Of a stretch of DNA of 64,000 nt, positions 2,334-29,749 are shown piece after piece. Position 1 is the first letter of the stretch. Each line of letters starts with the position of its first letter. Origin of the DNA: a virus; IMG/VR virus record IMGVR_UViG_3300046522_000512, positions 20,791-84,790 of that record. One strand, given 5' to 3'. The position numbers and the translations under genes were made by a program. The notes beneath the pieces were generated by a model. The model was not told where the DNA came from. It made no database searches and saw only the letters and a program-made list of their open reading frames with translations.

Positions 2334-2421
2334 GGCGGGTTCCTCCTAGGCGGGGCTCTCGATGCGCGCACCGTGCCCCGCCCGGGGGGTTAGCGTCCCG
2401 CCGTGGCCTTCCGGCCGGGCC

Positions 2422-2994: not shown

Positions 2995-3186
2995 GCCGCG
3001 AAGGGTCGGGAGTTCAAGAGCTTGCGTCTCGGCCTCCGCCAGGAGCGTGGCCCGGACGACTGCGCCCGCCTGTGGCCGGTCGGTTCGAATTGCAACAAAT
3101 TGGTTAAAGCGCTAGACATGTGGCGAGAGCCCGGTGTCCGATGGGCATCGTTTTCAGCAGGGCCCCACCTCAAGGGTGTGAGCGCT

Positions 3187-3670: not shown

Positions 3671-3928
3671 ATGGCTAAGACACAGTTGAACGCGCGCGTG
3701 CCGGAGGAGCTGGCCGACGAGGTCCGCTCGGCCGCGAGTAGGGCAGGCATGGACATTGGGGACTACGTCGCCGCAGTCCTTGAGGCTGACCTGGCGGCCG
3801 CGTCAGGAAGCCAAGAACTGCGACAGGCTCGCGCGAACATGCACGCTGCCGCGGCCTACAAGAAGTGGATGGCCAGTGAAAAGTCCGAAGAGGGCGCGAT
3901 GAGCATGGAGGAGGTCTTCCACGCGTGA
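3671..3928 (+). CDS. Putative antitoxin (ribbon-helix-helix)
   Basis: N-terminal QLNARVPEEL RHH pattern; C-terminal MSMEEVF; TAGGAT -10 six nt upstream (leaderless); 4-nt overlap with the next gene. Confidence 0.65.
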   Translation: MAKTQLNARVPEELADEVRSAASRAGMDIGDYVAAVLEADLAAASGSQELRQARANMHAAAAYKKWMASEKSEEGAMSMEEVFHA

Positions 3929-4173
3929 CGGCGATCCCGGCAAGGTTCGCTGCCCACGTCGGCGAGACCATCAAGAACCTGCCCGGCCCTGACAAGGAGG
4001 AGCTGCACACCGCGATCCTGCGGGCGTGTGCGGACCCGATGTCGTGGCCACAGGCCGACAAATACGAGATGGACGAGACGGTGCGCGTCATCACGACGCG
4101 CACCGCCATCGTCCACTACGTGATCCTTCTCGGCGCGGACCCTCACCTGTGGCTCTTCGCCATCACGGTCTGA
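3925..4173 (+). CDS. Putative RelE/ParE-like toxin
   Basis: 82 aa, coupled to an RHH gene; helix-helix-DP followed by beta strands, as in RelE/ParE folds. Confidence 0.5.
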   Translation: MTAIPARFAAHVGETIKNLPGPDKEELHTAILRACADPMSWPQADKYEMDETVRVITTRTAIVHYVILLGADPHLWLFAITV

Positions 4174-4407: not shown

Positions 4408-7400
4408 TCACCGAGTGGCGAGCAGTCCCAGAAGGAACGCCCGCAGGTCGTCATCCCTGTACCAGTCGCCCGAGAACATCGTCGCGAGCCCGCGAGCCAC
4501 GATCTGGTCATCGGTGACGTCCTCCGCCCGGCCGCCGAACAGCCGCTCCAGCAGCGCATCCAGCGTGCTGCGCCGGGCCCCGGGCCGTCCGGTGTGGGTC
4601 CGGGTGAACCCGAACACCTCCTGCGCGGCCAGCAGATCCGGGTAAGAGCGCTGAAGGTGAGCCACCAGAGCGTTCACCGCAGTGCCGCGGCCGCCGTCGC
4701 CGAGGTCAGCGACCGTGGCCGTACCGGAGTCGGCGTCGTACGAGCCCGCGTCACCATCGACCGCGGTCACGAACCGTGCCGTGCGGTCCGCGAGCCACTC
4801 CCGCGGCACGTAGCCCGCAGCATCGGCCAGCGCTCGCGCCGCCGCCGGGTCGCTGCTGTGGCTCAGCGTCAGCCGGTTCCTGCCACCGGGGCCCATCTCT
4901 CGGACCTGCGCGAGGGTGTCACGCACCGCGCCGGGCAGCGCGGCCGTGTACGCCTGGTGCAGCCGGTCGGCTTCCTGCCGGGCGTGCTGCGCTTCCACCT
5001 GCGCCGCGGCGATCTCCGGACCGAGGTCCGGGGCGCCCTGGCCGGCCGCCACCGCCCGCAGGTTCCGAACACGGGCCTCCGCCCGGTCCTGGTAGCGGCG
5101 GGCGTGCCGCACCGTGCCGTGCGGGTCGTCGCCGAGCTCCGGCGCGGCCGCCATCAGCCGTGCCACGACATCGGCGTCCACGTCCGTACCGGCCGCGCGC
5201 ACCGCGGCGAGATGCCGCAGGGCGTGCCGCCCGGGTCCGCGGTCCGCAGCCCGGTCCATCGTCCAGCCCGTGCCGTCCTGCACGCCGGGGAGCTGACCCG
5301 CGGCGAGCGAGGAGCGGGTGGCCAGCCGGTACCAGCGACGGCGCCGGGAGACCTGACCGAAGTGGCCCGGGGCGGGCAGCAGCCGCGCCCAGTGCGCCAC
5401 CTGGTCGGCCAGCGACATGCCGTCCCCGTGCCGCGGCAGGGAGCGGGCAGCGGCCGCGATACGGCGCAGGCGCCGAGTCTCCGGCCACGATCGCACCCGC
5501 CGCACCAGACCCTTGCGGAACCGGTTGATGGCCTTGAACGGGTACGCCACCGCGGCGGCGAGACCCTTGAGGAACGCGGCCACCAGCTCCACGACCCGGC
5601 GGGCGATCTGCACGAGCGCCGCCGTGATGCGGGCGAGCATTCCCGGCCGCTCGCCTTCCGGCAGCTGGGCCGCAATGCGCTGCGCTGCACCGTCACGGCT
5701 GTCAGCCATGCGCTGCGCGAGCCGGGCGACGATCGCCGCGCGCCGCTCCGGAGTCAGCAGCCCCGTATCGGCATCCCGGAGCGCCTCGCCCACCGCACCA
5801 TCGACGTGGCCCTGCACCTCGTCGTCGACTGGGGAACCCGCACCCGCGTCGGGCTCGGGAGTGGCCTCACCATCGGCGCTGCCGTCCCCGTCGCCCACAC
5901 CGGTGTCGAGGTCGGGCTCATCCGACTCCGACCGGTTGCGCAGCGACTCCGGGATCAGCCGCAGCAGGTCCGCAGCACGCGCCGCGGTGTCCTCGGGCGA
6001 CTCCCCGTCCAGCGGCTCCAGGTCGTCGAGCGTCTGCACCGCAGCCTGCACCGCGTCGATCCGCGAGCGCATCGCCATCCGCCGCAGCTCGGCGAGCAGC
6101 CGCTCCCGCTCGTCGCCGGTGATACCCGACCCGTCGACCACCGCCTGCGCGTCCCTTTGCACGCGCCGCATCGCCGACCGGAGCGCGCCCGCCGTGACCT
6201 TCGCGGCGATCTGCTCCCGGAGCTGGTGAATGCTGCCCGGGGTCTGAGTCCCTTCCACCGCGGCGTCGACCACGGCCCGCGCGACCAAGTCGCCGTAATC
6301 GGCCGTGAACGCCGCCGTGTCCAGGCCCGCGTTCGGGTCCCGAGCTTCGGCGTCATCGTCGGCCGGAACCTGCGGCTCGGGCAGTTGGTACAGCGGGTCA
6401 CCGGCGGCCATGGTCCGCTCGGAACGCTGCCCGTTCCCGTCTTCCACCGTCAGGACCCGCAAGCCGCCCGGGGCGTCCTGGACGTCCGTGACGCGGTACG
6501 AGGCCATCTCGTCGGGGTTCGTCTCGTCCGGCAGGGCGATGGTGTCACCGACACCGACCGAGCCGACCGTGCCCGGCTCCGGCCGCCCCGCCGGCGCGCT
6601 GTCCGCATCCGGGTTCGGGGCGTCGGCCTCGCCGGTCAGGCGGCGCTGGTTCGCGGCGAACCAGGCAGCCGCGGGCCGTTCCCGGTCCATGACGCTCACC
6701 GACTCGGCAAGGGATCCGCCGAGGATCTGGAACGTCCTGGTGGTGGACGGCCTACCGGCCAGGCCTTCGAGCTCGACCGTGACCTGCTTGTCGCCGACGC
6801 TGACGGACTGCACCTTGCGGGTGAACCAGTCGCTGCCGTTGGCGCCGGTGCCGAACACCAGGTGATCGCCCGGCTTCAGCTCGGTCGCCTTCACGATGCG
6901 GCGGTCTGCCTGATCGGCGACCCCACCGCCTTCAAGGGCGCTGTCGTAGGGCAGGGGCCGGAACGGGGCGCGGGCGCCCACGCTGTCACTGATGAACCGG
7001 CCGTCAGCGTTGGCCAGGAGGAGATTGACTGTCTTCCCGTCCTCGCTTCGGATCCCTTCCACGACCAGCAGACGGGAGGGCTCCCCGTTGACCGGCGCCA
7101 CGATCACATCACCGGTACTCAGGTAGCGCGCTTCGGTGGTCATACCGCCGTCGTCGTTGCTCGTCCCGGTCTGCCCGGCCGCCTGGTCGAGGCGGTCAGC
7201 GGCCCGCTTGGCTGCGCGGCCCTCCGCCGTCGATGGGTCGGCGTTCTGGCGAAGGCCTTCAGCTATCGCGGCCGCCTGCTCGGGGGTGACGGGCAGGTCC
7301 CGGGCGATCCGGGCCGCGCCCTGCTGCGCCTCGGGGGCGTCGCCGGGGGCGGTGCCCCGGTCGGCGACCGCGTCGCGCTCTTCCGGTGCAAGCTCCGGGT

Positions 7401-10400
7401 CCACGGTCGGCCCGGTCACGGGCTCCACCGTCGGGGCCGGCTCGCGGCTCGTGATCGGCTCCTTGCGCCGCTGGGCGGCCGGTGTGCCGTCCTGCCCGTT
7501 GTTGTCGGTGTCGCCGATGACGCGCAGGTCCGTGACGGGCATGGGCTTCATGCCCTCCGTGGTGGCGACGGTCGCGGTGTCGCCGTCCAGTTCCTCCACG
7601 GTGCCGAGCATGTTGCCGTCCCGGTCGCTGACCCAGTTGCCGACGTTCACGCGGTGCCCGTCCGTCGTCCAGCCGGACGGGCGCGCCGCGCCGCCGTCGA
7701 TGACGTTGAGGGTGCTCGGCTCGTGCGCGTCGTCGGTGCGGTCGTCGCCGAACTGCACCCGCACACCGGCGGAGTTCGCCCCGACCACGACGCCTTCGCG
7801 GCCGTCGTCGTCGGTCACGACCGACCCGGGGAACAGGCCGTTGCCGCCGCCGTCGGTCGCCACCCGGTCGGCAACCCGGCCGGTGAGGACATCGGAGTCC
7901 GCGCCGGTCTGCACCGTGGTGGCTTCGTCGCCGATCTCGCGAGTGGCGCGGGCCGCCGTGGCGTCCGGCTTGACCCACACCGACTCGCGCTTGGTCGAGC
8001 CGTCCGGGGTCTCGGCGATCAGCACGCGGACCATGTCCTGAACGCGCCGGGCCCGGACCGTCGGAACCTCCGTGGGCCCGTCCATGACGTACCCGGCCAG
8101 GGTCCGCGCGGTGCCGCCCTTGGTGATGCCGTCGATCCGCACCACGTCACCCTGGCGGATGTCGGAGACCTTGACCCACTCGGCGGGCCGCCCGTGCACA
8201 GGCTCGGGCACGGCCGGGCGCTCCGGCTCCGCTTTGTCCGCAGACGGCTTCGGGGTCTCCTCGGCCGGGGCGGGCCGCTCCTTGGCCGGCGCCGGGGTCT
8301 TCGCCGCCGGGGCGGGTCGGTCCTCGGCCGGAGCCGGGGCCGGGGTCTCCTTGGCCGGAGCCGGGGCCGGGGTCTCCTTGGCCGGAGCCGGGGCCGGGGT
8401 CTCCTTGGCCGGGGCGGGCCGTTCCTCGGCCGGGACCGGGGCCGGGGCCGGAGCCGGGGTGTTGGGGGCGGCCGCTGGGCGCTCCTCCGCCGGGGCCGGG
8501 GTGTTGTCGCCGGAGGACGTGGCCCGCTGGGGGGCGACCTCGGGGGCCTCGCCGACCTGACGGCCGTACCTGTACTCCTCCACCGGCAGGTTGACGTCGT
8601 CCGCGGACATCAGGCGCTGCGCGTTGTCCCCGACGGGGATGACGAACGTGTCCCCGGCCAGCTGGTGGGCGCCCACCACACTGGAGGCGACGTGGATGCG
8701 CACAGCCTTCTGCCGCTTCTTGTTGATGGTGATCGAGGCCGGACGGGGCTCACCCACCACGTAGCCGGTCCTGCGGGTAGTCGCTCCCGGGTAGCGGTTG
8801 GTGATCCGGCCGTCGAGGTCCACGATGTCGCCCGCTCGGAGGTCGGTGACGGGGACGCTCTCCGCCCTGTCCTTGCCGCCCTCGTCCACAAGGTCGTCAA
8901 GGAACTGCTTGGAGGCCCGAGCCTTGCTGATCTCGTGGTGCATGGCTCGCGGGTCCTCGGGTCGCAGCACGTCCAGGTAGTCACGGATCTCGTCGGCCAG
9001 CCAGCCGGGGCCGAGGATGTGCTTGTGCTTCAAATCGGCAGGCTGGTACTTGTAGTGAGTGGCGTCGAGCCACCGCAGCTCGTCGTGCAGGTGGTCCAGG
9101 TCGTCCGCCACGTTCCCGCTGATCGTCTCGCCACGGCCGAGGGCGTCGGCCAGCGCGCGAATCTTCCGGTAGCGCTCCATGTCCGCCGGGTTGTCGTTCA
9201 GCGACTCCAGGCCGCGCAGCCCCTCCTCCTCGGGCGGGAACCCGAGGCTGAGGTTCGAACCCCTGAAGTCCCAAGCGATGTCGGGGTGGACGATGCTCAG
9301 GTCGGGCTCGCCCTGTTCCATGTCCCGCAGTACGAGATGGGCGATGGCCGCATCCCGGGTGGAGAAAGTGCCGTTGTGGTAATGGTTGCCGAGGGGCATC
9401 TCGCCCTCCCACCGCTCCTCGGGCGGTGTCATGTAGAAGCCGGTGGTGTGCGGTGCGCGCACGCTGCCGATCAGCCGGCCGTTGCGCCAGACCTCTTCGC
9501 GGCCATGGTCCGAAACGAGCTTCGGGGAGGGCGTGAACCCCTGCGCAGCGAGTTCCTGTATGCGCTCGGGTGATCCGAACAGGGCGCGCTCACCCTCTTC
9601 GCTGATGATGCCGTTCTCGCCGGTCTGGTACTGCCTCAGCTCGTCGTGCGTCGGGATGCGCCGACCGTCCACGGTGCCCGCACGGCGGCCCTCTCCATGT
9701 GCGGCGTTGATGCCGTACTGGGACGTGGGCGCCGGGGCATCACCCGTGGGGGCCGCGCCCTGACCGTCGCCCGCGCCTGGCGCGTCGGAGCCGCCCGCGG
9801 AAGGCGCGTTCGAGGATGAGGCGCCGTCTTGGCCGCCGACCGGCGTCGCACCGCCCTCGCGCGGCACGTCCGCCCCGCCGGCCGCAGGGGCGTCGGTGTC
9901 AGGGAGGCGTGCGACCTTGTCGTCCGCGAGGATCGTCACGCCGTTGCGGACGTTCGGCTTGGCGTCGGGGTTGTCGCTCAGGTGCAGGCGCCAGGCCTTC
10001 AGGCGCTCCCCGTCGCGGGTCGCGGTGACACTGCGGGCCGGGGCGAGGAGGAAGCCCTCCCGGGTCACCTTGCTTCCGGCGGTGTTCTGCGTCTCGACGC
10101 GCACTCGGTCACCGCGCTGCGGCTCGTTTGGGTTGACGATCTCGGCGCGCGGCTCGTCGCTGATGTCCGGGACGGACGGCGTCCGCTCCGGCCGCTGCGG
10201 CGTGCTCTCCGCCGGCTCGGGGACGTCGGTCCGGTACTGCACATCAGCGCCCTCGGGGATGGCCACGATGTCGCTCGGGTGGAAGCGCCGAGCCTGGTTC
10301 TTGACCTTCCAGTAGCCGTCTCCCTGCCAGTCGTTGGAGCGCTCCACCACGACGTTCATGTGCTGAGTGCGCTTGCCGTCCTGGCGGGCGACGATCCGGA

Positions 10401-25400: not shown

Positions 25401-28400
25401 GCAGGAACTCGGCCGCATGGGCATGGTTGGCGCCGCCGCGGCCGCGCAGGGCGCGCTGCATTCCGTCGAGGGCGCCTTGGAACTGCTGGATGGCTTCCGA
25501 CGGCGTGATGTCACCGCGCTTCAGCGCGTCCACGGCGTCACCGGCAGGCGCCGCCAGGTCGTGCGCGGCGGGCGCTCCACGCAGCTCGGTCAGACTGTTG
25601 ATGACCGGGCCGAGCTGCTGCTCCGCCACATCGAGCGCTTCCACGATGTGGTTGCCCGCGGCGGTGGTAGCCGCCATGTCGGCCAGGCTCGGGCCCTGGT
25701 CGGCGTTGGGGGCCGGCTGCGGGGCCGCCTCGGGGGCCGGGGCGGGGGCGTGGTCGGTGTCGTGCTCGCGCACCAGGTCCGCGAGGGCCGCCTCCTCGGT
25801 GAGGAACGGCTTCTTGGAGCTGTAGCGGGTGCCGTGACCGAGCCGGTTCCACGTCCAGCGACCCGCAGAGCCCTGGAGCGTGGCGTCGTCCTGGTTGCCG
25901 CCATCGACGGCGGCGGGGCGGTGGCCCGACTCATTGTGCGCGCCGAGCTGGACGCGGGAGAGCTGCTGTGCGTACGCCTGTCCGTCGCGGCGCTGGGCCT
26001 CGGCGAGGATCGCCGTCTTCTCAGCCTGGGCGCGGGCCCTCTTCGCCTGGTCGCCGGAGGACAGGGTGTCAGACCAATCCTGGTCGGCCTTCGCAAAGGC
26101 GGCGTCGAGGTCCTCGCGCGACACCTGCGACCAATCCCGCTGCTCGGGCTTCGCCTGCGGGGCGTCGGGGTTCGGGGTGTTGGTGCGGTCGCCCGCGTAC
26201 GGGGTGCCGTCGGGGCGGGTGATGTCCTTCAGCGCGTGGGAACGCGTGCCCCGCTCGGCGCGCACGAGCACAGAGCCGGAGTCGCGGTTTACGGCCATGA
26301 CCGAGCCGACACCGTCAGGCGAGTTGACCTCGTCGCCGTTGTTGGGGAAGTCGCCTTCCGGCGTGGCCTGCGGGGCGCTCGGCGCGGCCGCGGCCGGGGT
26401 AGCCGCAGGGGCCGGGGCGGGCTTGTTCTGCTGCTCCTGCCGCTTGCGGTACTCGTTCGCGGCGTGGGACTCCGGGGCGCCGTGGGCGATGTCCCACTGG
26501 CCCCGCTGGTCGTCCATCTGGTTGCCGAAGGCCCGGCTCCACACCCCGACCCGGTGCCGCTCGCGGGGGCCCAGCTTCGGATCCCACCAGTCGACTTCCT
26601 GGTCCGGGTTGGACGACTCGCGCACCCCGCGGCCGACCTGCATGGCGAACTGGCTGGCATCCTCCCAGGACTTGAAGCCCTGCCCTGCGCCGCCGGACCA
26701 GCCGAGGGCTCTGCCGTCGTAGGCGCGGTGCACATCGAACCGGTGGGGGCCGCGCTGGACGATCGCGAAGCCGAAGTGGTTGGCCATGGTGACGTTCCAC
26801 TTGGGGTTGCCCGCCATGGCGCGCACCCCATCGCTGTACACGCGATCCAGGCCCGGGGCGCCGCCGTTCTTCCAGTACTCGCGCAGCTCACCGGTGTTGC
26901 CGGGCTTACGGAAGCCGACCTTGTCGTCGCCGTTGTTGCCGCTCGGTCCGACGTGGCCGACGGCGATGTTCTGCCGGGGGATGCCAGAGGTGTCGGCGAT
27001 GGACTGCGCGGCCTGCACGAGCGGGTTCGGCCGCTCGGTCGGGGCCGCGGGAGCCGCGGGAACGGCCGGGGCCGGGGCCGGCGGGAGGACGGCGGGGGTC
27101 GCGGGAGCGGGCGTGTTCCTCGCGGCCGCGCCCTCACGCTTCTTCGCGGCCTTGTCCGCGAATACCTTCTTCGCCTCCACGCTGGCCTGGCGCACCATCT
27201 CCTGGCCCTCGGGAGACTCCAGGCGCTGGTGATAGCCGGGGCTGTCCCAGTCGAACGGCTTGTCGCCGAGCTGGGCGGCCTCCAGGCGGTTCGCGAAGTC
27301 GACGGCTTCGCCCTTGCGCTCCGACATGGCCAGGCGGACGCCGCTGCCGGAGACGATGACCGCGTATCCGGTCTTGCGCTGGCCGTTCTTCTCCACGGTC
27401 ATCTTGGCGATGACGAACCGGCCGCCGCGGGAGAGCTGCGGCCTGTCGAGCTTGGCGAACAGTGCGGCGGTTTCCCGCTGGTGCCGCTCCTGCTGGGCCT
27501 TGTCCTGCGTGTACGGCTCCAGATTGCCCTTCCGCCAGTAGGCCTGAAGCTCGTCGAGGTTCTTGAAGAGTTTGCCGCCCAGGGCGCTGGCCGGTCTGGC
27601 TGCCTGCGGCCGCATGGGCATGCTCGTGTTGCCTTCACCCGGGGGCAGGCCTCCGCGAGAGCCGGGGCCCTTCTGGGGGCCGTCGGAGCGCCAGGCCCGG
27701 GGAACGAGCGGCTGACTCTTCGGGCGGTTCTTCCTCGGCGCGGGGATCGGCTCGTTGCCGTGACTGGTGAAGCGCTCGTGAGCGAGGCGCAGCGCGTCAC
27801 GCAGGTTGGCGGCGTACCGGGCAACCTCGTCCTGGCCGTCGTTGTGGGCGATCTCCGACAGCTGGTTGGCCTCGTCCGCGAGCCAAGACAGGCGTTCCAC
27901 GTCGTCCGGGTTGAGCTGGTCGTTCTTGTCGTCCCGGACGTCGAATCCGGTACCGGCGTCGGCCAGGCTGTCGTACAGCTCGTCGGCTTTGGCGTTGTGC
28001 CAGTTCGCCGGCCAGACGCCTTCCAGGTCCCCGAAGTACTCCTCACTCAAGTCGCGCACGGCGCGCCGGGCGTGGCTGGTGTCCCAGAACTGGTGGAAGT
28101 GGTCGTCTACCGGGGGGCCGGCGGCGCGCAGCGCATCACCGTTGCCCATGACGTGCCGCTCGTGGGGGGTGTCGTCCGCGTTCCTGTCGATGGGCAGCAG
28201 GTCGGGGAAGCTCGGCATGGCGACGTTGCCGCGCCGCCGGGGCGGCAGAGGGTCGCCGTCGTTGTCGTGGATGTTCGTCATGACGCGGCCCTGCGGGACG
28301 AGCGGCTGATCGTCGTCGTGGTTCGGGTCATCGGGGCCGGCGCCGAGATCCTGGCCCTCGATGTCCTGGCCGATCGGCTTGCCCTGGTCGTCGCGCTCGT

Positions 28401-28839
28401 GGACGGTGTCCGGGGTCTGGCCGTTGTCACCGCGGTCGTTGGCGGGGTGGTCGGCGCCCTCGGCTGTGTCGTCCTTCGCCGGGTCGTGCGGGCCGTGGCC
28501 AAGCCCGCGGTTCTCATCGCCGTAGCGCCGCTCGTCCTCGTCGCGGACCTTGGACTTGCTCTTGGTCGGCGCGGAGCCGTCCGGGCGGCTGACCATGGTC
28601 AAGCGGGCGGCGTTGATGCGGGAACGCTGGTGGGTGGCCAGGTTCTCCACGAGGACGTCGCGGCCACCGAGCGCGCGCAGGACGCGGGCCATGCCGCCGC
28701 CCCACATGCGGGCGATACCGCCCGTTTCCACGAACCTGCCCTTGGAGTCACGGGGGTGCAGATCCGGGTTCCACGTGCGGCGCAGCCTCTTGGTTTCGAG
28801 GCTGGCGAGGATGCGGTCTACGGCGGTGGTGATCGGCAT
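4408..28839 (-). CDS. Giant (~8143 aa) polyvalent protein: DarB-like N6-adenine methyltransferase + SNF2 helicase, SF1/UvrD-like helicase, repeated beta-barrel domains, degenerate zincin-like C-terminus
   Basis: MTase LEPGSGVG (~24600) and GNVPFG (~24430); SNF2 HEVGAGKT (~22385), VDEAH (~21880), QRNGRVIRQGN (~20735); SF1 ALAGTGKS (~16975), DEAQD (~16390), VGDSNQAIYGFRGA, HKSKGLE, YVAVTRA (~15305); leaderless ATG at 28839 set by the class I promoter. Confidence 0.92.
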   Translation of the reverse strand: MPITTAVDRILASLETKRLRRTWNPDLHPRDSKGRFVETGGIARMWGGGMARVLRALGGRDVLVENLATHQRSRINAARLTMVSRPDGSAPTKSKSKVRDEDERRYGDENRGLGHGPHDPAKDDTAEGADHPANDRGDNGQTPDTVHERDDQGKPIGQDIEGQDLGAGPDDPNHDDDQPLVPQGRVMTNIHDNDGDPLPPRRRGNVAMPSFPDLLPIDRNADDTPHERHVMGNGDALRAAGPPVDDHFHQFWDTSHARRAVRDLSEEYFGDLEGVWPANWHNAKADELYDSLADAGTGFDVRDDKNDQLNPDDVERLSWLADEANQLSEIAHNDGQDEVARYAANLRDALRLAHERFTSHGNEPIPAPRKNRPKSQPLVPRAWRSDGPQKGPGSRGGLPPGEGNTSMPMRPQAARPASALGGKLFKNLDELQAYWRKGNLEPYTQDKAQQERHQRETAALFAKLDRPQLSRGGRFVIAKMTVEKNGQRKTGYAVIVSGSGVRLAMSERKGEAVDFANRLEAAQLGDKPFDWDSPGYHQRLESPEGQEMVRQASVEAKKVFADKAAKKREGAAARNTPAPATPAVLPPAPAPAVPAAPAAPTERPNPLVQAAQSIADTSGIPRQNIAVGHVGPSGNNGDDKVGFRKPGNTGELREYWKNGGAPGLDRVYSDGVRAMAGNPKWNVTMANHFGFAIVQRGPHRFDVHRAYDGRALGWSGGAGQGFKSWEDASQFAMQVGRGVRESSNPDQEVDWWDPKLGPRERHRVGVWSRAFGNQMDDQRGQWDIAHGAPESHAANEYRKRQEQQNKPAPAPAATPAAAAPSAPQATPEGDFPNNGDEVNSPDGVGSVMAVNRDSGSVLVRAERGTRSHALKDITRPDGTPYAGDRTNTPNPDAPQAKPEQRDWSQVSREDLDAAFAKADQDWSDTLSSGDQAKRARAQAEKTAILAEAQRRDGQAYAQQLSRVQLGAHNESGHRPAAVDGGNQDDATLQGSAGRWTWNRLGHGTRYSSKKPFLTEEAALADLVREHDTDHAPAPAPEAAPQPAPNADQGPSLADMAATTAAGNHIVEALDVAEQQLGPVINSLTELRGAPAAHDLAAPAGDAVDALKRGDITPSEAIQQFQGALDGMQRALRGRGGANHAHAAEFLRLARENVSVARQALSEQHKRSNDSVVRGSRSDVLEDVPAAGSGSVPDGQGVRGVRPGAVGRDRAADRGTDGGVGSSAAGGHGRGGAGSRAEVGPDAGPGTGAARHGVRDAEGSGNGDEGHAAGGAASAPVAFGTPEQQATAPAYEPPADGKTLVPSSPVNRAKANIAAIEILRRLQDENRPATGAEQQELARYSGWGAVPQIFKPQPDAQFQPLAKRLRELLSDAEWADASANTLNAHYTDPQIVQQMWAALTDLGFDAGSVLEPGSGVGNFIGYAPDGTHMTGVEVDSITAGIAKALYPHAEVRHESFGDTRAPNGTFDAAVGNVPFGRYKVPDLVHNKGGHSIHNHFILKSLDLTRGGGLVAVVTSSLTMDGHGGRSEAARMEMAEKGELVGAIRLPSGAHQRTAGTSVMTDLLIFRRRDKSKSFTSGRNRKGEIKRPSERTQNDPPMWVHSLPTYALPGQTPPKPGTPPDQVEPPVFYNSYFHDNPQQILGKLAVGHGMHRDNELRVDGDGKTIANLERALKRTVEEAKAAGLAYKPDTEGRSKVTLLPPGSSRVDGHVQAEPDGSFTQVRDGMVHPFPVFKTQANEARQLLAIRDTFQSLLAEENRKDADESLIERLREALNKQYDAYHSKFGAINRFTWSKRTAIDPDTGEKVEKTYRKKAARGGLFTNDPTMSNITPLDEFDDTTRKTTKAPIFSKRLGTYREIAKYADDPQDALAIVLETDGRLTADGLARVMRTDADTAIARLLTARSVDSDTGVEYPMAFQAPDGELVTAADYLSGNVRTKLDEARRAAADDSRYDLNVEHLERVVPPDLSTGEIAAPMGASWIGREPVEQFLRETLGDQRITVSWQGGALWAVDAPDGAKKSIAERTAHTWSAKGYTALEIAEAILTNRKIVVTKKEGHGENAKSVYDKDATEDAQAKATLLREAFTDWLWADPDRAEKHKRFYNDNFNSMAPRSYDGQRRTIPGLVEWFDPHPHQHAAVARMVNEPSVLLAHEVGAGKTAEMAMGVMELRRLGLVKKAAMVVPGHMLEQFRHEFAEIFPESVANNRILTASSEDLAGKGRREFIARAAAGDYDAIILTQTAFESIQMRPEIQEDYIGRRVERLREKILRQKDADGEGNDTRLVKRMEASLKSLEEKLDKKLSGLKDAAGLHFEDMGVDYLVVDEAHMYKNLDTPSSVAAIDGSNRASDLEMKLEWLRKRSDTGRVVTFATATPVANSIAEVHTMMRYLRPDLLEELGMLDFDDFASTFAQMVSAVERSPDGSYKEKTRLAAFQNVPELLRLWRSFADVKTAEDLDLPVPGIVGGKAVTITMPMSPAQEEYEVLLRARAARLEGGNVDPKEDNHLKLLGDGRMAALDPRLLDPSLGGGNKLPTVADNVVRIYGETKDAVFPTSKTDATPHDTPGGLQIVFLDLGTPKDPGRSKKRKKKAGSGTDADEMDASLTDDGSESLSRDDEETYTDFSTYDELKSLLIARGIPAEQIRFIHEAKDDAAKARLFNDARSGKISVLLGSTAKMGTGTNVQLRAVALHHVDAPWRPADVDQRNGRVIRQGNANDEVAIFQYATERSTDAKFWEAIARKAKFIRALMRGSLSERVVEDIGPVNFDADEVSALTAGDPHLIAQAQLKPLVNRLRGRFNAYRRSQEGFKEAIRDSAQAEEWTKQYVAQLQQAVEKRKPTRGDDFNATIGTTDFEGGDARDDARNALNTALRAVYADGMRRPYDENAAGIPIGRVGGLEVTARFVRTRSIGNQWYNTVRVDLPQVPGAWQDYEDHELIDHDGKPRTLPLSRIENSIANIDERIKRAEHRRADKKRAAEQAAGRIGKPFELATVFEESTRQLDLLNEIMRLKAQPTVTEEDTAKRNKQIAALDAELRAMSNDQEDVLAQVAARDVNLVPKTPAPPAISQDDKGRVKWIWPTTEARDAARAKKLAAKREAFLARTSSSAQAAPAQPDALGMNNADLKEETDTLAERIAKGEASDKDVVRHAGLEREQQRREKNRAARAAAEQSSTPSGQNSGETVTLDPQKVRADLAEISPAADRTGAEPEGQDAPKETPASQPEAEPSLTTAQARALESALNSGLGPDGQQIEAHPNVIRRLLRLGYADERSKPRVGGGSIKYYVMTPEGERRARALRDEREQARTARLAALDAADEAPQERNSQTPQASGTPGTGPQPPSPRPAPQAPAAPRPAPKPADTVRPFANEREWRAGITGVEGAQGQVTSAAETTWGRDMPAPARSLRDNVFQAIAAQESGDTEDTAASLAGAREDAQRLRNRLTDTDRQGMEAPLDNFMRVTDDYLARHAVTVEKRRREDAQRDRIEREAQEQFRRSLTGTPAPAPETPAKGSDAPSTGRAWQDGDFQPGDTVAFSNRNAMNMQQSGEFVRSANQDTAVLRGRNGAEREVPYIDIMGRTRDGVFEENPPAAGTPTTPLPQPTPSADDGKQFESGDKVHYWYDESGPAQRKLGTVVETTDDGVVVDGPAGDRETIPFNRVTKAPERQRSADAPQPAPASSDLPMSALFAKNKATSRHALDSLKAGYQEQFGDEPRDRVGQLSNELFTFLDQQWGEAAGGVFGPASETALHLADALHDQEMTPEERSGRFGAQVADVQRELRHRRDVIARQQGAPDSAGKAPRPSAPSDARPVPATPPADMDGDQIGEEIDTLDEQIAPLQDATDSVDLAYRLRLEQRRFELEEEERRRWSPTPEYGEDGKVIPRKRGDVIRDRLAGYGLNDAETTGLVHRVEDLPAAKAGGYSDEEWARIDTAAAANEAYPPTEEQGIIIEGAARRGLNMAVMALAGTGKSSTLKMLSHRMPGKKIVYLAFNRSVANEAREAQARGEYAKNLTASTANGYAAKVADKRLNNRLPNHKAGGFKKLSAQQIADRMRWYDTVKAGDRDLAPGGAATVAELMIKTWAKSSDAEMGPQHITGAKTAQEARDLFDAVKPLADRMWANLSDPTKGDAGQDLPMDFDYIVKMWAVGGFKIDADTLYWDEAQDVNPVMEGVVRAAIDQGVQVVAVGDSNQAIYGFRGASDALSKLPVDARATLTQSFRFGPAVANVGNRFLRLLGTRMRLKGFDRKDSRLGNIKPGDETMVIARTNAGVALAAVEALAAGRTIAVSGGVKDLQEFVTAARALANGERTSHAELARFNGKSYEDILDEVNSDPELQQLKSLFALLDKHPDEIDKLMESGAQAADTENVGGRVWVTLDWNDPKVDQLKRWLGDAKTNGVGKLLYDRESRRYYYEPGKRTESFTKNGRTINYQVDNKLSLEDAKAKIDAHLAKLYPQEDTGGGRLVDEKKPHDLLVTTAHKSKGLESEKVRIADDFRGPEYDDNGHIKWDTVPEDEDLRVAYVAVTRATDVLDAGSLGWVFEAVNDGDPTQPPTGEYRRDWVLDDFKPGDRINFQEEDGTPQVGEVARLDGPGLIARYDVDGQQREQYIGTAQVQRRNGQDRPQLPVASEDELNQAVAEGRYPEASGGAPAKLDAGKVRDELAALKNDQPSPETTEPRKEANTGSPAAPDPATGIITGDQVPPGPDATAADKEAYRRRFDIRYQVGYYVDYRNDDGETVTARVVNTRGNPILRDDAGHEFRADPNWYADHFIAVRKDDGSALPRPAWADTLPDGFRAVPPNEIQPGHVIREGSSSDKLWGSRFVMAKTVDEDGRTTLYTAQLATQGGGGLGLDPRQLVVLDETEESRQLAEEALHRRDVKESAKLQGLTLPTELPAGPNRQAQEGSTAREWHNGDTAVTPNGEGRVILAEDGKVVVLDGGGAPRTYEPRQLSMPGEARTAEHNAPTAQEAARGEKRQQDLESAQTPEGLGLFYGARLANLDLEEGHGQVLDEDGNVVGWIRRRGTVWHGQDARGGQTGGGTAQSASDPLYGPREAAQAVDSNRRDNGMRVALKDTAWRHLRPEEGRDTVQYSELSDAQREEFFKLAKEWAKSSDHELSEAAKHWGQGGLNYRQMNRLAEEATATADSVDASTPEGRRRQAVLQRLADKIRAQASRAWHSWQTMPPPGEPDVPRDVDAPDWVPYGHRETSKTDAPVKLDAAQVRTELADLNGSDSSPAADGDPGKASPEPEADGETIDADQARINDYVRVEVSDTLDRTRVHEGYLLANPRKGKGHRPRHGDFDAWILYIGNGPNQSPGRGNQVDIPADQKIQRLPAPEAPALGPVDIDSVKPGQYIRATVPDADGNEVTREGYVVSAAARRDGPRRDDPVMSWQVHIADTPHAVHAWDDVIEVPAGHEVERMSPPGPVPELEIPDVPGLDLSEYTRPDQKEVDEYRKWAGVWANPAPDGPRNALLDRVKNMPGPASRPLSPKAAPRWIGDAGDAFPLDQFDENTRHLLAQYDGDQRDFLAGHAASMREATQRLAGEFRAASREIMIPRIATRSGMKDAAEKLGALWAGDSERSRQVVLDQIAAAVADADRHGLTEQQVKDFLVGVAGGDDPEQRANGLTGAFPEVGRSLSSASDDVKAYYAGFHAWRGQNDDQSFSGYHHYNNRRSALGGEYLPVADPRTGDGQFIVGEAELPDGMRWTRLQNLKPGDLYRPARGYYAKDNRFDGLDAAHVVVNLHADGKEGRPRTTSLSTGSHTEHPGDWVVHLTAPEPALRKKANAKLRDKWVKKENEDDARKWEAAQAISRRPDGEAADVASLQEGERLRVRGSNEFIGGIYVAEGDLLEPPERAQMWRGGSQVDGWRLLLSTHGHAGDHIYVADGESDEWAERLSRDTNAPETGASGTNAPETGESQTNEPGTDEPKPDESGDGEPKPDESENNDDRDRRRRRRNQLGNGAPNGGGGGLPGGLGMGLPNFPDSSTPSTGSGRGRGDGSGRTPAGTGQADNANPAAGLPDEFAALRQRYDGDMVPASEIQVGDWVHIVGADQMYNEPKHLVGRVLHTRQFNGGVRIEVESRDPLKGGDAVQRESAALYDGELAERLPEGNPGREDTSDLKRRMETWEERASASRVPVPEGWQAVDGSRIQPRIGDRFRIVARQDGKRTQHMNVVVERSNDWQGDGYWKVKNQARRFHPSDIVAIPEGADVQYRTDVPEPAESTPQRPERTPSVPDISDEPRAEIVNPNEPQRGDRVRVETQNTAGSKVTREGFLLAPARSVTATRDGERLKAWRLHLSDNPDAKPNVRNGVTILADDKVARLPDTDAPAAGGADVPREGGATPVGGQDGASSSNAPSAGGSDAPGAGDGQGAAPTGDAPAPTSQYGINAAHGEGRRAGTVDGRRIPTHDELRQYQTGENGIISEEGERALFGSPERIQELAAQGFTPSPKLVSDHGREEVWRNGRLIGSVRAPHTTGFYMTPPEERWEGEMPLGNHYHNGTFSTRDAAIAHLVLRDMEQGEPDLSIVHPDIAWDFRGSNLSLGFPPEEEGLRGLESLNDNPADMERYRKIRALADALGRGETISGNVADDLDHLHDELRWLDATHYKYQPADLKHKHILGPGWLADEIRDYLDVLRPEDPRAMHHEISKARASKQFLDDLVDEGGKDRAESVPVTDLRAGDIVDLDGRITNRYPGATTRRTGYVVGEPRPASITINKKRQKAVRIHVASSVVGAHQLAGDTFVIPVGDNAQRLMSADDVNLPVEEYRYGRQVGEAPEVAPQRATSSGDNTPAPAEERPAAAPNTPAPAPAPVPAEERPAPAKETPAPAPAKETPAPAPAKETPAPAPAEDRPAPAAKTPAPAKERPAPAEETPKPSADKAEPERPAVPEPVHGRPAEWVKVSDIRQGDVVRIDGITKGGTARTLAGYVMDGPTEVPTVRARRVQDMVRVLIAETPDGSTKRESVWVKPDATAARATREIGDEATTVQTGADSDVLTGRVADRVATDGGGNGLFPGSVVTDDDGREGVVVGANSAGVRVQFGDDRTDDAHEPSTLNVIDGGAARPSGWTTDGHRVNVGNWVSDRDGNMLGTVEELDGDTATVATTEGMKPMPVTDLRVIGDTDNNGQDGTPAAQRRKEPITSREPAPTVEPVTGPTVDPELAPEERDAVADRGTAPGDAPEAQQGAARIARDLPVTPEQAAAIAEGLRQNADPSTAEGRAAKRAADRLDQAAGQTGTSNDDGGMTTEARYLSTGDVIVAPVNGEPSRLLVVEGIRSEDGKTVNLLLANADGRFISDSVGARAPFRPLPYDSALEGGGVADQADRRIVKATELKPGDHLVFGTGANGSDWFTRKVQSVSVGDKQVTVELEGLAGRPSTTRTFQILGGSLAESVSVMDRERPAAAWFAANQRRLTGEADAPNPDADSAPAGRPEPGTVGSVGVGDTIALPDETNPDEMASYRVTDVQDAPGGLRVLTVEDGNGQRSERTMAAGDPLYQLPEPQVPADDDAEARDPNAGLDTAAFTADYGDLVARAVVDAAVEGTQTPGSIHQLREQIAAKVTAGALRSAMRRVQRDAQAVVDGSGITGDERERLLAELRRMAMRSRIDAVQAAVQTLDDLEPLDGESPEDTAARAADLLRLIPESLRNRSESDEPDLDTGVGDGDGSADGEATPEPDAGAGSPVDDEVQGHVDGAVGEALRDADTGLLTPERRAAIVARLAQRMADSRDGAAQRIAAQLPEGERPGMLARITAALVQIARRVVELVAAFLKGLAAAVAYPFKAINRFRKGLVRRVRSWPETRRLRRIAAAARSLPRHGDGMSLADQVAHWARLLPAPGHFGQVSRRRRWYRLATRSSLAAGQLPGVQDGTGWTMDRAADRGPGRHALRHLAAVRAAGTDVDADVVARLMAAAPELGDDPHGTVRHARRYQDRAEARVRNLRAVAAGQGAPDLGPEIAAAQVEAQHARQEADRLHQAYTAALPGAVRDTLAQVREMGPGGRNRLTLSHSSDPAAARALADAAGYVPREWLADRTARFVTAVDGDAGSYDADSGTATVADLGDGGRGTAVNALVAHLQRSYPDLLAAQEVFGFTRTHTGRPGARRSTLDALLERLFGGRAEDVTDDQIVARGLATMFSGDWYRDDDLRAFLLGLLATR
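8200..8500 (-). repeat. Tandem 27-bp-type repeats encoding PAPAPAKET/EERPAPA linker
   Basis: Repeated ggggccggggtctccttggccggagcc units. Confidence 0.85.
25011..25337 (-). CDS. Nested out-of-frame gene within the giant ORF (TnpV-like small helical protein)
   Basis: AGAGGAG RBS 8 nt before GTG (ATG-ACA-GTG); globular composition; the host frame here is G/R/A-rich low complexity. Confidence 0.65.
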   Translation of the reverse strand: MTVSYVDLVRTFWKTYRPLEVDRFPTDKAFEEFARERSDEIVQQIEELTEEWAPPLQEGTDAVARARELKSVRMRARERVLHDMVYGMPKDPGTETKDMPRVELPQLP

Positions 28840-28846
28840 GCGGCGG

Positions 28847-28877
28847 ACCATGCACACCGGGGATGGTTAACGTCGCG
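28847..28877 (-). promoter_or_regulatory. Class I (late-type) promoter of the giant gene
   Basis: CGCGACGTTAA-N14-CATGGT-N7-ATG; one of 8 copies. Confidence 0.75.
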
Positions 28878-28910
28878 GGCTCGAATTTTGCGGCCCGCGA
28901 CGCGGCCGGA

Positions 28911-29126
28911 CTACATCGTCTCCGTCAGGATGTGGAGGAGGAACCAGCCCGAGAAGCCCGTCCAGGCGAGGGTGAAGGCGGCTCTTCCGAGCTTCGAGGT
29001 ACGGACGTGGAAGAGCCGTCGGACGTTCTCGCTGAGGGTGTCCTCGTCCTTGCGGTTGATGAGCGCCCACGTCTCGTAGAGGGCGAACGCTGAGGTCCAT
29101 GCAGACCAGATGAGCCAACTGTTCAT
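28911..29126 (-). CDS. 71-aa membrane protein
   Basis: GGAG RBS; MNSWLIWSAW...DTLSENVRRLF...FLLHIL with two hydrophobic segments. Confidence 0.7.
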   Translation of the reverse strand: MNSWLIWSAWTSAFALYETWALINRKDEDTLSENVRRLFHVRTSKLGRAAFTLAWTGFSGWFLLHILTETM

Positions 29127-29749
29127 GACGTCGTCTCCATTGCTGAGGAGGGCAGGGGGCGGGGGCCGGTGCCGTCGTACGGGGCGGCGAGACCGGCATT
29201 GATCAGGGCGCGATTGAGCTCGTGGCCGTAGGGGGTCGCGATGGTGGCGAGGTAGCGGCCGTACTTCTCGCGGCGCTCGGTGTCGACGGTGAACGCGGGC
29301 CCGTGCGCGGCGACCCACTCGCGGACCCAGTCGGCGGCGTGCTTCCCGGCGTCGGTGTTCTTCTCGGCGGTGTTGATGCCGAGGAGCCGGACGCGTTCGA
29401 AGGCGCGGAGCTCGAACCCGAGGTCGATGGCGAGGTCGAGGGTGTCTCCGTCGATGACGCGGGTGATGCTCGCGCTGTAGGTGTGCGGGGCCGGGGCGTC
29501 GGTCAGGGTCGCGAGGTAGCGGCCCTTGGTGTCGCGGGTGGTCTGGACGGTGAGCGGCCCGCCGCTGGCCTTCAGGTGTGCGCGGGCCCACGCGGCGGCC
29601 TTCTTCGGGTCGTCGGTGGTCGTGTCCGCGGTCGCCACGGCGGTCAGGCGGACGCGTTGGGCCAGGTGCAGGTCGAACCCGAGGTCGATGTCGAGGTCGA
29701 GGGCGCCCGCGCGGCCGATGCTGAGGAGGGTGGTGCGGTAGGTGTGCAT
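29123..29749 (-). CDS. Thermonuclease (SNase) family protein with a degenerate N-terminal duplicate domain
   Basis: RVIDGDT, RVRLLGINTAE, EKYGRYLA, LNRALINAGLA; start overlaps the portal stop. Confidence 0.88.
   Translation of the reverse strand: MHTYRTTLLSIGRAGALDLDIDLGFDLHLAQRVRLTAVATADTTTDDPKKAAAWARAHLKASGGPLTVQTTRDTKGRYLATLTDAPAPHTYSASITRVIDGDTLDLAIDLGFELRAFERVRLLGINTAEKNTDAGKHAADWVREWVAAHGPAFTVDTERREKYGRYLATIATPYGHELNRALINAGLAAPYDGTGPRPLPSSAMETTS

What the first reader, a model, noticed from the sequence alone, without database searches (positions are those of the whole stretch)
4408..28839. 8,100-aa DarB-like polyvalent protein with two helicases encoded between portal and protease
One 24.4-kb ORF joins an N6-MTase+SNF2 module (the P1 DarB antirestriction architecture) to a complete SF1/UvrD-like helicase and many accessory domains. 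It has its own late-type promoter and an N-terminal WNPDLHPRDSKGRF motif. Position and regulation imply a virion-delivered DNA-protection or establishment machine, several times larger than P1 DarB.
Basis: partly seen in the sequence, partly recalled or inferred. Interest (0 to 1): 0.8.

Follow-up and report, generated by a model that had tools for sequence, protein, structure and literature searches.

The report
Giant cysteine-free phage head cargo protein
A Streptomyces phage-plasmid spends 29% of its genome on one 8,143-residue protein that carries a P1 DarB-type anti-restriction enzyme and a second helicase. Several sequence features suggest it is loaded into the virus head and injected with the DNA, but this has not been shown at the bench.

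Summary
A single open frame runs on the minus strand from 28857 (likely start ATG 28851 or 28839) to 4408. It encodes 8,143-8,149 aa (882 kDa) and takes 29% of an 84.8-kb metagenomic phage contig. It lies between the portal-MuF gene and the prohead protease.

The core (aa ~1290-3040) is colinear with P1 DarB. An intact FBH1/UvrD-like SF1 helicase follows at aa 3934-4525. About 5,500 aa match no known family.

The architecture is not new. Iyer et al. 2017 described methylase-SNF2-UvrD giants in actinomycete plasmids, including one of 12,242 aa. More than 50 homologues exist on 114-138-kb Streptomyces elements.

New here are four indirect lines for virion loading:
- a near-invariant N-terminal tag, found at the N-terminus of about 200 other huge, portal-adjacent proteins;
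- no cysteine at all (68 expected);
- three internal copies of the peptide that ends the prohead protease;
- a conserved N- and C-terminal "chassis" shared with gp48 of the isolated phage Gilgamesh, which lacks the enzymes.

A conserved upstream motif shared with six other morphogenesis genes supports late co-regulation. Packaging, ejection and anti-restriction remain inferred. Other first readers noted this stretch on the same genome, not on other DNA.

The parts
4408..28857 (-). Giant ORF: 8,149 codons from GTG 28857. Likely start ATG 28851 or 28839; stop codon 4410-4408.
28866..28874 (-). Upstream motif GACGTTAAC, one of 7 copies in the genome, all before morphogenesis genes. Candidate late promoter element, 9 nt before GTG 28857.
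28872..28901 (-). 9-bp stem, 12-nt loop hairpin after the 71-aa membrane-protein gene; overlaps the motif by 3 nt.
   Evidence: sequence read directly
28363..28800 (-). N-terminal tag, aa 20-165: invariant peptide W-N-P-D-L-H-P-R-D-S-K-G-R-F (aa 29-42, nt 28732-28773), an SH3/KOW-like barrel (aa ~45-95), then a conserved acidic tail.
25498..28077 (-). N-terminal unknown modules (aa 261-1120): four-helix bundle at 260-365, and three confidently modelled alpha/beta domains of similar layout at 430-580, 650-760 and 905-1035.
25048..25497 (-). Gly/Arg/Ala-rich linker (aa 1121-1270) where the giant frame loses its GC3 signal. The alternative-frame ORF 25011-25337 lies in its downstream part and runs a little past it.
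19729..25332 (-). DarB-like dyad (aa 1176-3043): N6-adenine methylase (motif I aa 1416, motif IV aa 1476) plus SNF2 helicase (Walker A 2158, DEAH 2326, motif VI 2704).
19270..19314 (-). Protease-tail-like motif 1 (aa 3182-3196), in a linker after the SNF2 module.
15283..17058 (-). SF1 helicase of UvrD/Rep/FBH1 type (aa 3934-4525), all motifs intact.
14884..14925 (-). Protease-tail-like motif 2 (aa 4645-4658), in a linker after the UvrD module.
13192..13236 (-). Protease-tail-like motif 3 (aa 5208-5222), in a linker.
7519..13116 (-). Repeat-rich region (aa 5248-7113): six ~90-aa beta-rich R1 repeats and two of the six ~50-aa SH3-like R2 repeats, separated by Pro/Ala- and acid-rich linkers. Partly shared with Gilgamesh gp48.
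4411..6660 (-). Conserved C-terminal module (aa 7400-8149): small barrel, helices, one hydrophobic helix (aa ~7744-7777) and many invariant residues. 42.5% identical to the C-terminus of Gilgamesh gp48.
351..398 (-). Extreme C-terminus of the prohead protease, carrying the same V-x-L-D-P-x-x-V-K-x-x-L-A-x-L peptide. Invariant in 13 relatives.
29749..32208 (-). Portal protein with MuF-like C-terminal extension, upstream neighbour.
28911..29126 (-). 71-aa membrane protein (phrog_3555) immediately upstream; kept there in 38 of the 45 family loci.

Best explanation
The gene encodes a capsid-internal 'pilot' polyvalent protein of a Streptomyces phage-plasmid.

Proposed steps (all inferred):
1. It is made late, together with the head genes.
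2. It is taken into the procapsid through its conserved N-terminal tag and through three internal copies of the amphipathic peptide that ends the prohead protease. That peptide is read here, by analogy with the HK97 protease C-terminal tail, as a capsid-interior docking signal.
3. It stays essentially uncut.
4. It leaves the head through the tail with the DNA.

The protein is a conserved chassis (N-terminal tag plus the C-terminal ~2,000 aa of small beta modules and a helical end domain). Enzymatic cargo has been inserted into it: a DarB-type N6-adenine methylase fused to an SNF2 translocase, then a UvrD/FBH1-like helicase. In the new host the DarB-type dyad would track along the entering DNA and protect it from restriction in cis, as P1 DarB does. 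The SF1 helicase would strip or outcompete host nucleases or help establishment.

Shown: the ORF, its domains and intact catalytic motifs, homology to P1 DarB, the synteny, the tag, the motif copies, the lack of cysteine, and the chassis/cargo split.

Inferred: late expression, packaging, ejection and anti-restriction activity.
For: - Position and synteny: portal-MuF, (SNase), 71-aa membrane protein, giant, protease-2H, capsid protein. This order is kept on a complete 132-kb plasmid, across IMG/VR and genome loci, and in the isolated phage Gilgamesh.
- Shared upstream motif with six other morphogenesis genes, kept in 21 of 29 relatives.
- Core colinear with P1 DarB, with all motifs intact. P1 DarB is an established virion head component that acts in cis (PMC5512222).
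- The N-terminal tag is near-invariant in 29 relatives. It recurs in 208 cluster representatives among 1.84 billion proteins, mostly at the N-terminus of 1,000-7,000-aa proteins. Where context was seen, these lie downstream of a portal.
- Zero cysteines in 8,143 aa against 68 expected. The closest ~35 homologues have 0-1, and 140 tagged proteins have 0.067% overall. This fits a protein that spends time outside the cell and must pass a narrow channel.
- The protease's invariant C-terminal peptide occurs three more times in the genome, all inside the giant and all in linkers after cargo modules. None is expected in shuffles. Most of the closest homologues carry 1-3 copies.
- Gilgamesh gp48 (4,624 aa, no cysteine) has the same tag and C-terminal part but no enzymes.
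- One copy would occupy about 1,070 nm3, the space of about 530 bp of packed DNA. It therefore fits in the head.
- Precedent: the >4,400-aa protein of Microbacterium phage Burro, encoded next to the portal, is virion-associated (PMC7302621).
Against: - There is no proteomic, transcript or genetic evidence. No RNA run holds the sequence.
- The docking role of the protease-tail peptide rests on an analogy with HK97 recalled from the literature, not on a test.
- Gilgamesh gp48 lacks internal copies of that peptide, so the copies are not needed for the chassis.
- No homologues of the P1 helper proteins DarA, Hdf or DdrA were looked for.
- An 882-kDa chain with large folded enzymes must unfold to pass a siphovirus tail, which is demanding.
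- The element also carries a TraB-like DNA translocase. Iyer et al. placed UvrD-bearing giants in conjugation-like contexts.
- Cysteine exclusion has other possible causes.
Confidence: 0.6

Rival explanations
1. The protein is a late-expressed enzyme that is not packaged. It works in the producing cell, methylating and remodelling progeny DNA before packaging, or helping late replication and recombination. Protection in the next host would then come from pre-modified DNA, not from an injected protein.
For: Methylase, SNF2 and UvrD modules are all DNA enzymes with intact motifs. Relatives carry further DNA-modification genes near the head module, namely 7-deazaguanine synthesis genes. Position among late genes does not prove packaging.
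Against: This does not explain total cysteine exclusion or the N-terminal tag shared with enzyme-free giants. It also leaves unexplained the protease-tail peptide copies and the 5,500 aa of non-enzymatic chassis. P1 DarB, the homologue, acts from the virion.
Confidence: 0.15
2. The protein serves the plasmid life of the element. It would be made in the plasmid state or during TraB-mediated conjugal transfer and help establishment in recipient mycelium, as Iyer et al. proposed for UvrD-bearing actinomycete giants.
For: The genome encodes a TraB-like FtsK/SpoIIIE protein and an integrase. Relatives are annotated as plasmids. PMC5512222 places the 12,242-aa prototype in a conjugation-like context.
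Against: The gene sits inside the head module in every locus seen and shares the upstream motif of the capsid, protease and tail genes. The same chassis is in a phage isolated by plaque formation. From general knowledge, Streptomyces TraB moves double-stranded DNA and is not known to carry proteins.
Confidence: 0.07
3. The protein is mainly structural or mechanical. It would act as an internal head body or ejection conduit whose motors (SNF2, UvrD) pull the genome into the cell, with anti-restriction secondary or absent.
For: The conserved part is the non-enzymatic chassis. It has a hydrophobic helix in the C-terminal module, about 30% linker and many small barrels. A conserved small membrane protein is encoded just upstream. 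SNF2 enzymes are double-strand DNA translocases.
Against: Gilgamesh manages without the motors, so they cannot be essential for DNA entry in this group. The methylase module is intact and conserved, which argues for a modification role. No fold match supports a channel or scaffold.
Confidence: 0.12
4. Artefact: a chimeric metagenome assembly, or a chance open frame in 70% G+C DNA.
For: The contig is metagenomic. High G+C gives long spurious frames; for example, a 3,837-aa antisense ORF exists.
Against: GC3 is 0.90 in this frame only. Fifty-four full-length homologues of 4,550-7,876 aa exist in isolate genomes. An independent sample tiles 20 kb colinearly, and the listed indels keep the frame.
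Confidence: 0.01

Closest known systems
Phage P1 DarB (2,255 aa; NC_005856 10469-17236)
   Same: Colinear homologue of aa ~1290-2760. The methylase region is 28% identical (E 7e-24) and has the same G-N-V-P-F-G motif IV. Both helicase lobes match (E 4e-23 and 4e-10). darB also lies next to the portal gene in P1.
   Different: The giant is 3.6 times longer. It adds an SF1 helicase, an N-terminal tag and ~5,500 aa of unknown modules. No DarA, Hdf or DdrA helpers were identified. Host and virion type differ (Gram-positive host, siphovirus-like tail module).
Gigantic actinomycete polyvalent proteins with methylase-SNF2 plus UvrD (prototype OJH72069.1, 12,242 aa, S. viridifaciens plasmid; Iyer et al. 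2017, PMC5512222)
   Same: Same domain triad in one giant polypeptide on a Streptomyces extrachromosomal element. Same proposed role in protecting entering DNA.
   Different: The paper assigns these to conjugation-like contexts acting on single-stranded DNA. Here, and in every related locus examined, the gene sits in a phage head module. In the passages of the paper that were searched, the tag, cysteine exclusion, protease-tail motifs and chassis/cargo split did not appear.
Streptomyces phage Gilgamesh gp48 (4,624 aa; NC_073461)
   Same: Same N-terminal tag (42% identity), same C-terminal ~750 aa (42.5% identity) and repeat blocks, no cysteine. Same neighbours: portal-MuF and membrane protein upstream, protease-2H and capsid protein downstream.
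   Different: It lacks the methylase, SNF2 and UvrD modules and the internal protease-tail motifs. It is annotated only as a hypothetical protein.
Giant virion-associated proteins of Microbacterium phages Burro and cluster EK (>4,400 aa; PMC7302621)
   Same: A very large gene (about 25% of the genome) next to the portal gene of an actinophage. It has few recognisable domains, and a ~250-kDa product is seen in virions.
   Different: These are podoviruses. No sequence relation was tested or found: the tag search of isolated phages returned only Gilgamesh. They are half the size.
HK97 prohead protease gp4 C-terminal capsid-targeting tail (from the literature, recalled)
   Same: A short peptide at the extreme C-terminus of an S78-family protease in a system whose capsid protein carries its own delta domain.
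   Different: The targeting function is not tested here. The reuse of the peptide inside another protein is a new observation, not a known feature of HK97.
Phage N4 virion RNA polymerase (3,500 aa)
   Same: A very large enzyme packaged in the head and ejected through the tail ahead of or with the DNA. It is a precedent for passage of a huge polypeptide.
   Different: No homology. It has a different enzymatic activity and comes from a podovirus.

Membership tests
DarB-like methylase-helicase dyad | N6-adenine methylase with SAM-binding motif I and catalytic motif IV | tested here: met
   Motif I E-P-G-S-G-V-G-N-F at aa 1416 and motif IV G-N-V-P-F-G at aa 1476. The same motif IV aligns with P1 DarB. 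It is conserved in 53 of 55 family members.
DarB-like methylase-helicase dyad | SNF2/DExH helicase C-terminal to the methylase in the same chain, colinear with P1 DarB | tested here: met
   Pfam SNF2-rel_dom, ResIII and Helicase_C. phrog_10089 scores 1263 bits. Three colinear BLASTP segments align to P1 DarB.
DarB-like methylase-helicase dyad | Protein present inside the virion head | not testable with these tools
   Only indirect signs: synteny, tag, cysteine exclusion and protease-tail motifs.
DarB-like methylase-helicase dyad | Protects incoming DNA in cis against type I restriction | not testable with these tools
   Needs plating of a mutant on restricting hosts.
DarB-like methylase-helicase dyad | Packaging depends on DarA/Hdf/DdrA-type helper proteins | not tested
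   The neighbours gave no such PHROG or Pfam hits, but the whole genome was not searched with those families.
Polyvalent protein (Iyer et al. 2017) | Two or more unrelated effector domains in one polypeptide, encoded with the portal-terminase packaging genes | tested here: met
   Methylase, SNF2 and SF1 helicase in one ORF between the portal and protease genes.
Polyvalent protein (Iyer et al. 2017) | Processing peptidase (zincin-like MPTase) or other named LPD domains, frequent but not obligatory | tested here: inconclusive
   No Pfam or NCBIfam hit in ten overlapping 950-aa pieces at E up to 1. Distant versions could be missed.
SF1A helicase (UvrD/Rep/PcrA/FBH1) | Walker A, DExx (motif II), motifs III, IV, V and VI in order | tested here: met
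   A-G-T-G-K-S at 3961, D-E-A-Q-D at 4155, the G-D-x-x-Q-x-I-Y-x-F-R-G-A motif at 4182 and V-A-V-T-R-A at 4516. The best solved relative is FBH1 (9xzj), E 8e-23, with motifs IV and V aligned.
Capsid-targeting tail of HK97-type prohead proteases | Conserved peptide at the extreme C-terminus of an S78 protease | tested here: met
   Peptidase_S78 hit. The same 15-residue peptide ends the protease in 13 relatives and in Gilgamesh.
Capsid-targeting tail of HK97-type prohead proteases | The peptide is necessary and sufficient for encapsidation | not testable with these tools
   Would need fusion of the peptide to a reporter and analysis of procapsids.
Streptomyces phage-plasmid (pZL12/pSLE1 type) | Phage morphogenesis genes together with plasmid maintenance or transfer genes on one replicon | tested here: inconclusive
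   Terminase, portal, protease, capsid and tape-measure-sized genes are present, plus a TraB-like FtsK and an integrase. ParA/ParB and the replicon were not sought. The pZL12 paper and the pSLE1 record were not available.

The most novel reading that the evidence does not exclude
The N-terminal tag, the total exclusion of cysteine and the reused protease-tail peptides may define a general, undescribed loading-and-ejection system of actinophages. It would allow nearly megadalton proteins to be drawn into the procapsid and later threaded, N-terminus first, through the tail. In that system a conserved chassis acts as a carrier into which arbitrary effector modules can be inserted. Here those modules are a DarB dyad and a UvrD motor, which may also help reel the genome in.
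Probability: 0.25. Interest if true: 0.85.

Novelty: new member of a known kind. Interest (0 to 1): 0.6.

Why it matters
If the protein is packaged, it would be among the largest virion proteins known, about twice the actinophage record reported in 2020. It would show how far a phage will go to protect entering DNA, at a cost of 29% of its coding capacity.

The tag and the docking peptide are short, conserved and portable. They turn an open question into simple fusion experiments: how are very large proteins chosen for encapsidation, and how do they get out through a tail? They could also serve as handles for loading foreign proteins into Streptomyces phage heads.

The work also corrects the literature context. 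The UvrD-bearing actinomycete giants sit in phage head modules of phage-plasmids, not in conjugation gene sets.

Tried and rejected
- AlphaFold2 of the C-terminal 750 aa with 12 sequences gave a poor model (pLDDT 59.8, pTM 0.28). A PDB profile search and the ESM Atlas gave nothing for it.
- AlphaFold2 of aa 1-1120 gave confident small domains, but Foldseek and VIA-align returned only generic SH3/KOW barrels and four-helix bundles.
- NCBIfam and relaxed Pfam searches on ten pieces added no family.
- Four other tag-bearing giants had no Pfam domain.
- PDB sequence search of the DarB-like core: no hit.
- The idea that the prohead protease cuts the giant at E-x-K-[A/S] sites, as it seems to cut the capsid protein at T-E-V-K|S, is not supported. 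Only 2 sites are present, with 3.6 expected.
- 'CATCCCC' as a promoter element was a false lead; it is an Ile-Pro codon pair.
- The sigma-70 scan found nothing upstream.
- The search for related loci with the 1,170-aa N-terminus found nothing.
- Relatives cannot be drawn for a virus record.
- The pZL12 paper and the pSLE1 record were not available.
- No RNA holder was listed among the sequencing runs, so nothing can be said on expression.
- The short 'joints' in the laid contigs have 20-22-nt sides and were disregarded.
Full report
**The object.** The window is part of a single 84,790-bp contig held as a virus record, assembled from a rhizosphere metagenome. On the minus strand one frame is open from 28866 to 4408. 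The first start codon is GTG 28857, giving 8,149 codons. Twenty-eight homologues aligned at the N-terminus keep the methionines that correspond to ATG 28851 and ATG 28839. The nucleotides around them are conserved, so the product is most likely 8,147 or 8,143 aa and 882 kDa. The gene takes 28.8% of the contig.

**The frame is real.** Third-position G+C is 0.90 in this frame, as in the other genes, and it leads in 388 of 403 sliding windows. Fifty-four full-length homologues of 4,550-7,876 aa exist, mostly on 120-138-kb Streptomyces contigs. In an independent metagenome, three contigs tile 8901-28900 colinearly. The indels listed across four runs all keep the frame: +6, -3, and a +1/-1 pair five bases apart.

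**Recognised domains.** Pfam, PHROG and NCBIfam recognise only three modules.
- An N6-adenine methylase, with motif I at aa 1416 and motif IV N-V-P-F at aa 1476.
- An SNF2 helicase at aa 2133-2760, with Walker A, DEAH and motif VI present. Together with the methylase it matches the 'DarB-like antirestriction' PHROG with 1263 bits over aa 1176-3043.
- An SF1 helicase at aa 3934-4525 with all motifs in order. Its best solved relative is the FBH1 helicase core, E 8e-23.

I fetched P1 darB and compared it directly. The match is colinear in three segments (E 7e-24, 4e-23 and 4e-10) and includes the identical G-N-V-P-F-G motif. One hundred and forty isolated-phage records carry a homologue of the core at about 33% identity over 97-99% of 1,600 aa.

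**The rest of the protein.** About 5,500 aa have no family. By self-comparison there are six ~90-aa beta-rich repeats, six ~50-aa SH3-like repeats and one further duplicated segment. About 30% of the chain is linker-like. AlphaFold2 on aa 1-1120 with 29 sequences gives confident small units: a barrel at aa 45-95, a four-helix bundle at 260-365, and three alpha/beta domains of similar layout at 430-580, 650-760 and 905-1035. No solved structure beyond generic folds matches them. The C-terminal 750 aa are highly conserved but modelled poorly.

**Context.** Upstream lies the portal gene with a MuF-like C-terminus. Its stop overlaps the start of a staphylococcal-nuclease-like gene. That gene is in turn ATGA-coupled to a 71-aa membrane protein. 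A 53-nt gap follows, and then the giant gene. Downstream lie a few small ORFs, then the S78 prohead protease fused to a 2H phosphoesterase, then an HK97-fold capsid protein with its own ~97-aa delta domain.

The same order is kept in three places. It holds on a complete circular 132-kb Streptomyces plasmid. In 12 loci found with the C-terminus, the protease lies downstream. In 45 IMG/VR loci found with the N-terminus, the portal lies upstream in all, and the membrane protein in 38. The contig also encodes terminase, an integrase and a TraB-like FtsK/SpoIIIE protein. This fits the pZL12/pSLE1 kind of plasmid-phage described in PMC4487206.

**Regulation.** The gap before the gene holds a hairpin and the nonamer GACGTTAAC, which ends 9 nt before GTG 28857. 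GACG-N-TA-[A/G]-C occurs seven times in the 85-kb genome. Every copy is on the minus strand and in an intergenic spot before a morphogenesis gene: capsid, protease, the giant and four others. Shuffles give about 3.9 matches over both strands anywhere. The nonamer and its spacing to the conserved start region are kept in 21 of 29 relatives, Gilgamesh included, and most of the rest differ by a base or two. This supports co-regulation with the head genes. It does not prove promoter activity or timing.

1. *N-terminal tag.* The N-terminal ~160 aa are a conserved unit: the peptide W-N-P-x-L-H-P-R-D-S-K-G-R-F, a small barrel, then an acidic tail with invariant residues. A profile of it finds 208 cluster representatives among 1.84 billion proteins. 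Most matches lie at the very N-terminus of proteins of 1,000-7,000 aa. In ten distant viral contigs the peptide heads an ORF. Seven of these ORFs are large (>800 to >2,800 aa, six cut by the locus end), and all seven have a portal-like gene upstream.

2. *No cysteine.* From the likely start on, the protein contains none. The other 45 ORFs average 0.83%, which predicts 68. The ~35 closest homologues have none or one, and where one is present it probably lies in an over-extended annotated start. Taken together, 140 tag-bearing proteins have 0.067%. More distant homologues have 7-19.

3. *Protease-tail motifs.* The prohead protease ends in an invariant peptide, V-x-L-D/N-A/P-x-E-V-K-A-x-L-A-x-L, in all 13 relatives checked. 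The same pattern occurs exactly three more times in the six-frame translation of the genome. All three are in the giant (aa 3182, 4645 and 5208), each in a linker just after a module, and none appears in shuffles. Most of the closest homologues carry one to three copies. Two earlier first-reader notes on this genome had suggested this; I tested it here. By analogy with the C-terminal capsid-targeting tail of the HK97 protease (literature knowledge, not tested), I read these as docking peptides for the procapsid interior.

4. *Chassis and cargo.* The isolated Streptomyces phage Gilgamesh (129 kb) has, in the same place, gp48. It is 4,624 aa with no cysteine, and it has the same tag, the same repeat blocks and the same C-terminal 750 aa (42.5% identity). 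It has no methylase, SNF2 or UvrD, and no internal docking motif. The family therefore has a conserved chassis with inserted enzymatic cargo.

**Processing.** The capsid delta domain ends at T-E-V-K|S-L-G-D, and the protease carries repeated E-x-K-[A/S] sites around its 2H domain. The giant has only two such sites, with 3.6 expected, and both lie inside folded modules. I therefore see no sign that it is chopped by that route.

**Feasibility.** One copy would fill about 1,070 nm3, the space of about 530 bp of packed DNA.

**What is known.** Iyer et al. 2017 (PMC5512222) defined polyvalent proteins and described the methylase-SNF2 dyad with DarB as archetype. They noted that in a few actinomycetes a UvrD-like helicase joins it in gigantic proteins, the prototype being 12,242 aa on a Streptomyces viridifaciens plasmid. 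They placed these in conjugation-like contexts. Jacobs-Sera et al. 2020 (PMC7302621) reported >4,400-aa, virion-associated proteins next to the portal of Microbacterium podoviruses as the largest in actinophages. The finding is thus a new member of a published kind. The head-module context, the tag, the cysteine exclusion, the reused protease tail and the chassis/cargo split did not turn up in what I could read. A text search for the tag peptide found nothing relevant.

**Verdict.** The most likely mechanism is a capsid-loaded, ejected pilot protein that brings a DarB-type protector and a second helicase into the new host (confidence about 0.6). Its rivals are late intracellular action, plasmid-state function and a mainly mechanical role. 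Virion proteomics on a cultured relative would settle the main point.

Noticed in passing
window 25011-25337 (-), inside the giant ORF: Over aa ~1121-1270 the giant frame loses its GC3 signal (0.40-0.54) and reads as Gly/Arg/Ala filler. The +1 frame carries the signal and a 108-aa helical ORF with a weak TnpV hit (E 0.014). That peptide aligns in the same +1 offset in more than 15 relatives. In the closer relatives it scores higher than the giant-frame peptide; in more distant ones the giant frame scores higher or the peptide is not found. This looks like a conserved overprinted gene just ahead of the methylase module.
   Followed up: partly
window 29123-29749 (-): A staphylococcal-nuclease-like gene (two tandem OB-fold halves; phrog_452, E 6e-44). 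Its ATG overlaps the portal stop codon. It has no cysteine and is present in only some relatives.
   Followed up: partly
window 28911-29126 (-): A 71-aa two-helix membrane protein (phrog_3555), ATGA-coupled to the nuclease gene. It lies directly before the giant gene in 38 of 45 related loci, and a membrane-protein gene also sits there in Gilgamesh. It may be a partner of the giant protein.
   Followed up: partly
genome 1420, 13499, 19633, 21085, 23187, 49664, 81559 (window 295, 2397, 28874, 60769 for those inside it): Seven copies of GACG-N-TA-[A/G]-C followed by a C-rich stretch, all on the minus strand and intergenic before morphogenesis genes. This is a candidate late promoter or activator site of unknown sigma type.
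   Followed up: partly
window 351-2333 (-) and L002:4674-5984 (-): The prohead protease is fused to an intact 2H (LigT-like) phosphoesterase bracketed by E-x-K-[A/S] repeats. The capsid protein has a ~97-aa delta domain ending T-E-V-K|S, which suggests the protease's cut motif.
   Followed up: partly
window 3671-3925 (+) and 3925-4170 (+): Two small overlapping plus-strand ORFs sit between the giant gene and the protease, against the flow of the head operon. The first has a weak CopG/ribbon-helix-helix hit. The same opposite-strand pair exists on plasmid NZ_CP107821.
   Followed up: no
window 45246-47339 (+), 38589-39962 (-): A TraB-like FtsK/SpoIIIE DNA translocase and a tyrosine-integrase-like gene sit on the same element as the phage genes. 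The element may move both as a virion and by Streptomyces-type conjugation.
   Followed up: no
L003:7217-9066 (NZ_CP107821): A related 132-kb phage-plasmid carries QueD-, QueE- and FolE-like genes (7-deazaguanine pathway), thymidylate kinase and NUDIX genes a few kb upstream of its portal. This points to a second layer of DNA modification in this group.
   Followed up: no
window 27063, 27084, 24740-24745: Natural variants in other rhizosphere metagenomes: a 6-nt insertion, a 3-nt deletion, and a +1/-1 pair five bases apart. All preserve the giant reading frame.
   Followed up: no
genome 1-340 (outside the window): The first 100 bases of the contig recur 240 bases further on, inside an ORF that runs off the contig end. 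This suggests a tandem repeat in a tail-fibre-like gene and an incomplete or permuted contig.
   Followed up: no
P0097, P0118, P0139, P0180, P0192 and others: Some proteins found with the tag profile carry the H-P-R-D-x-x-G-R-F peptide four to seven times along the chain rather than once at the N-terminus. These proteins are less cysteine-poor. Their meaning is unknown.
   Followed up: no
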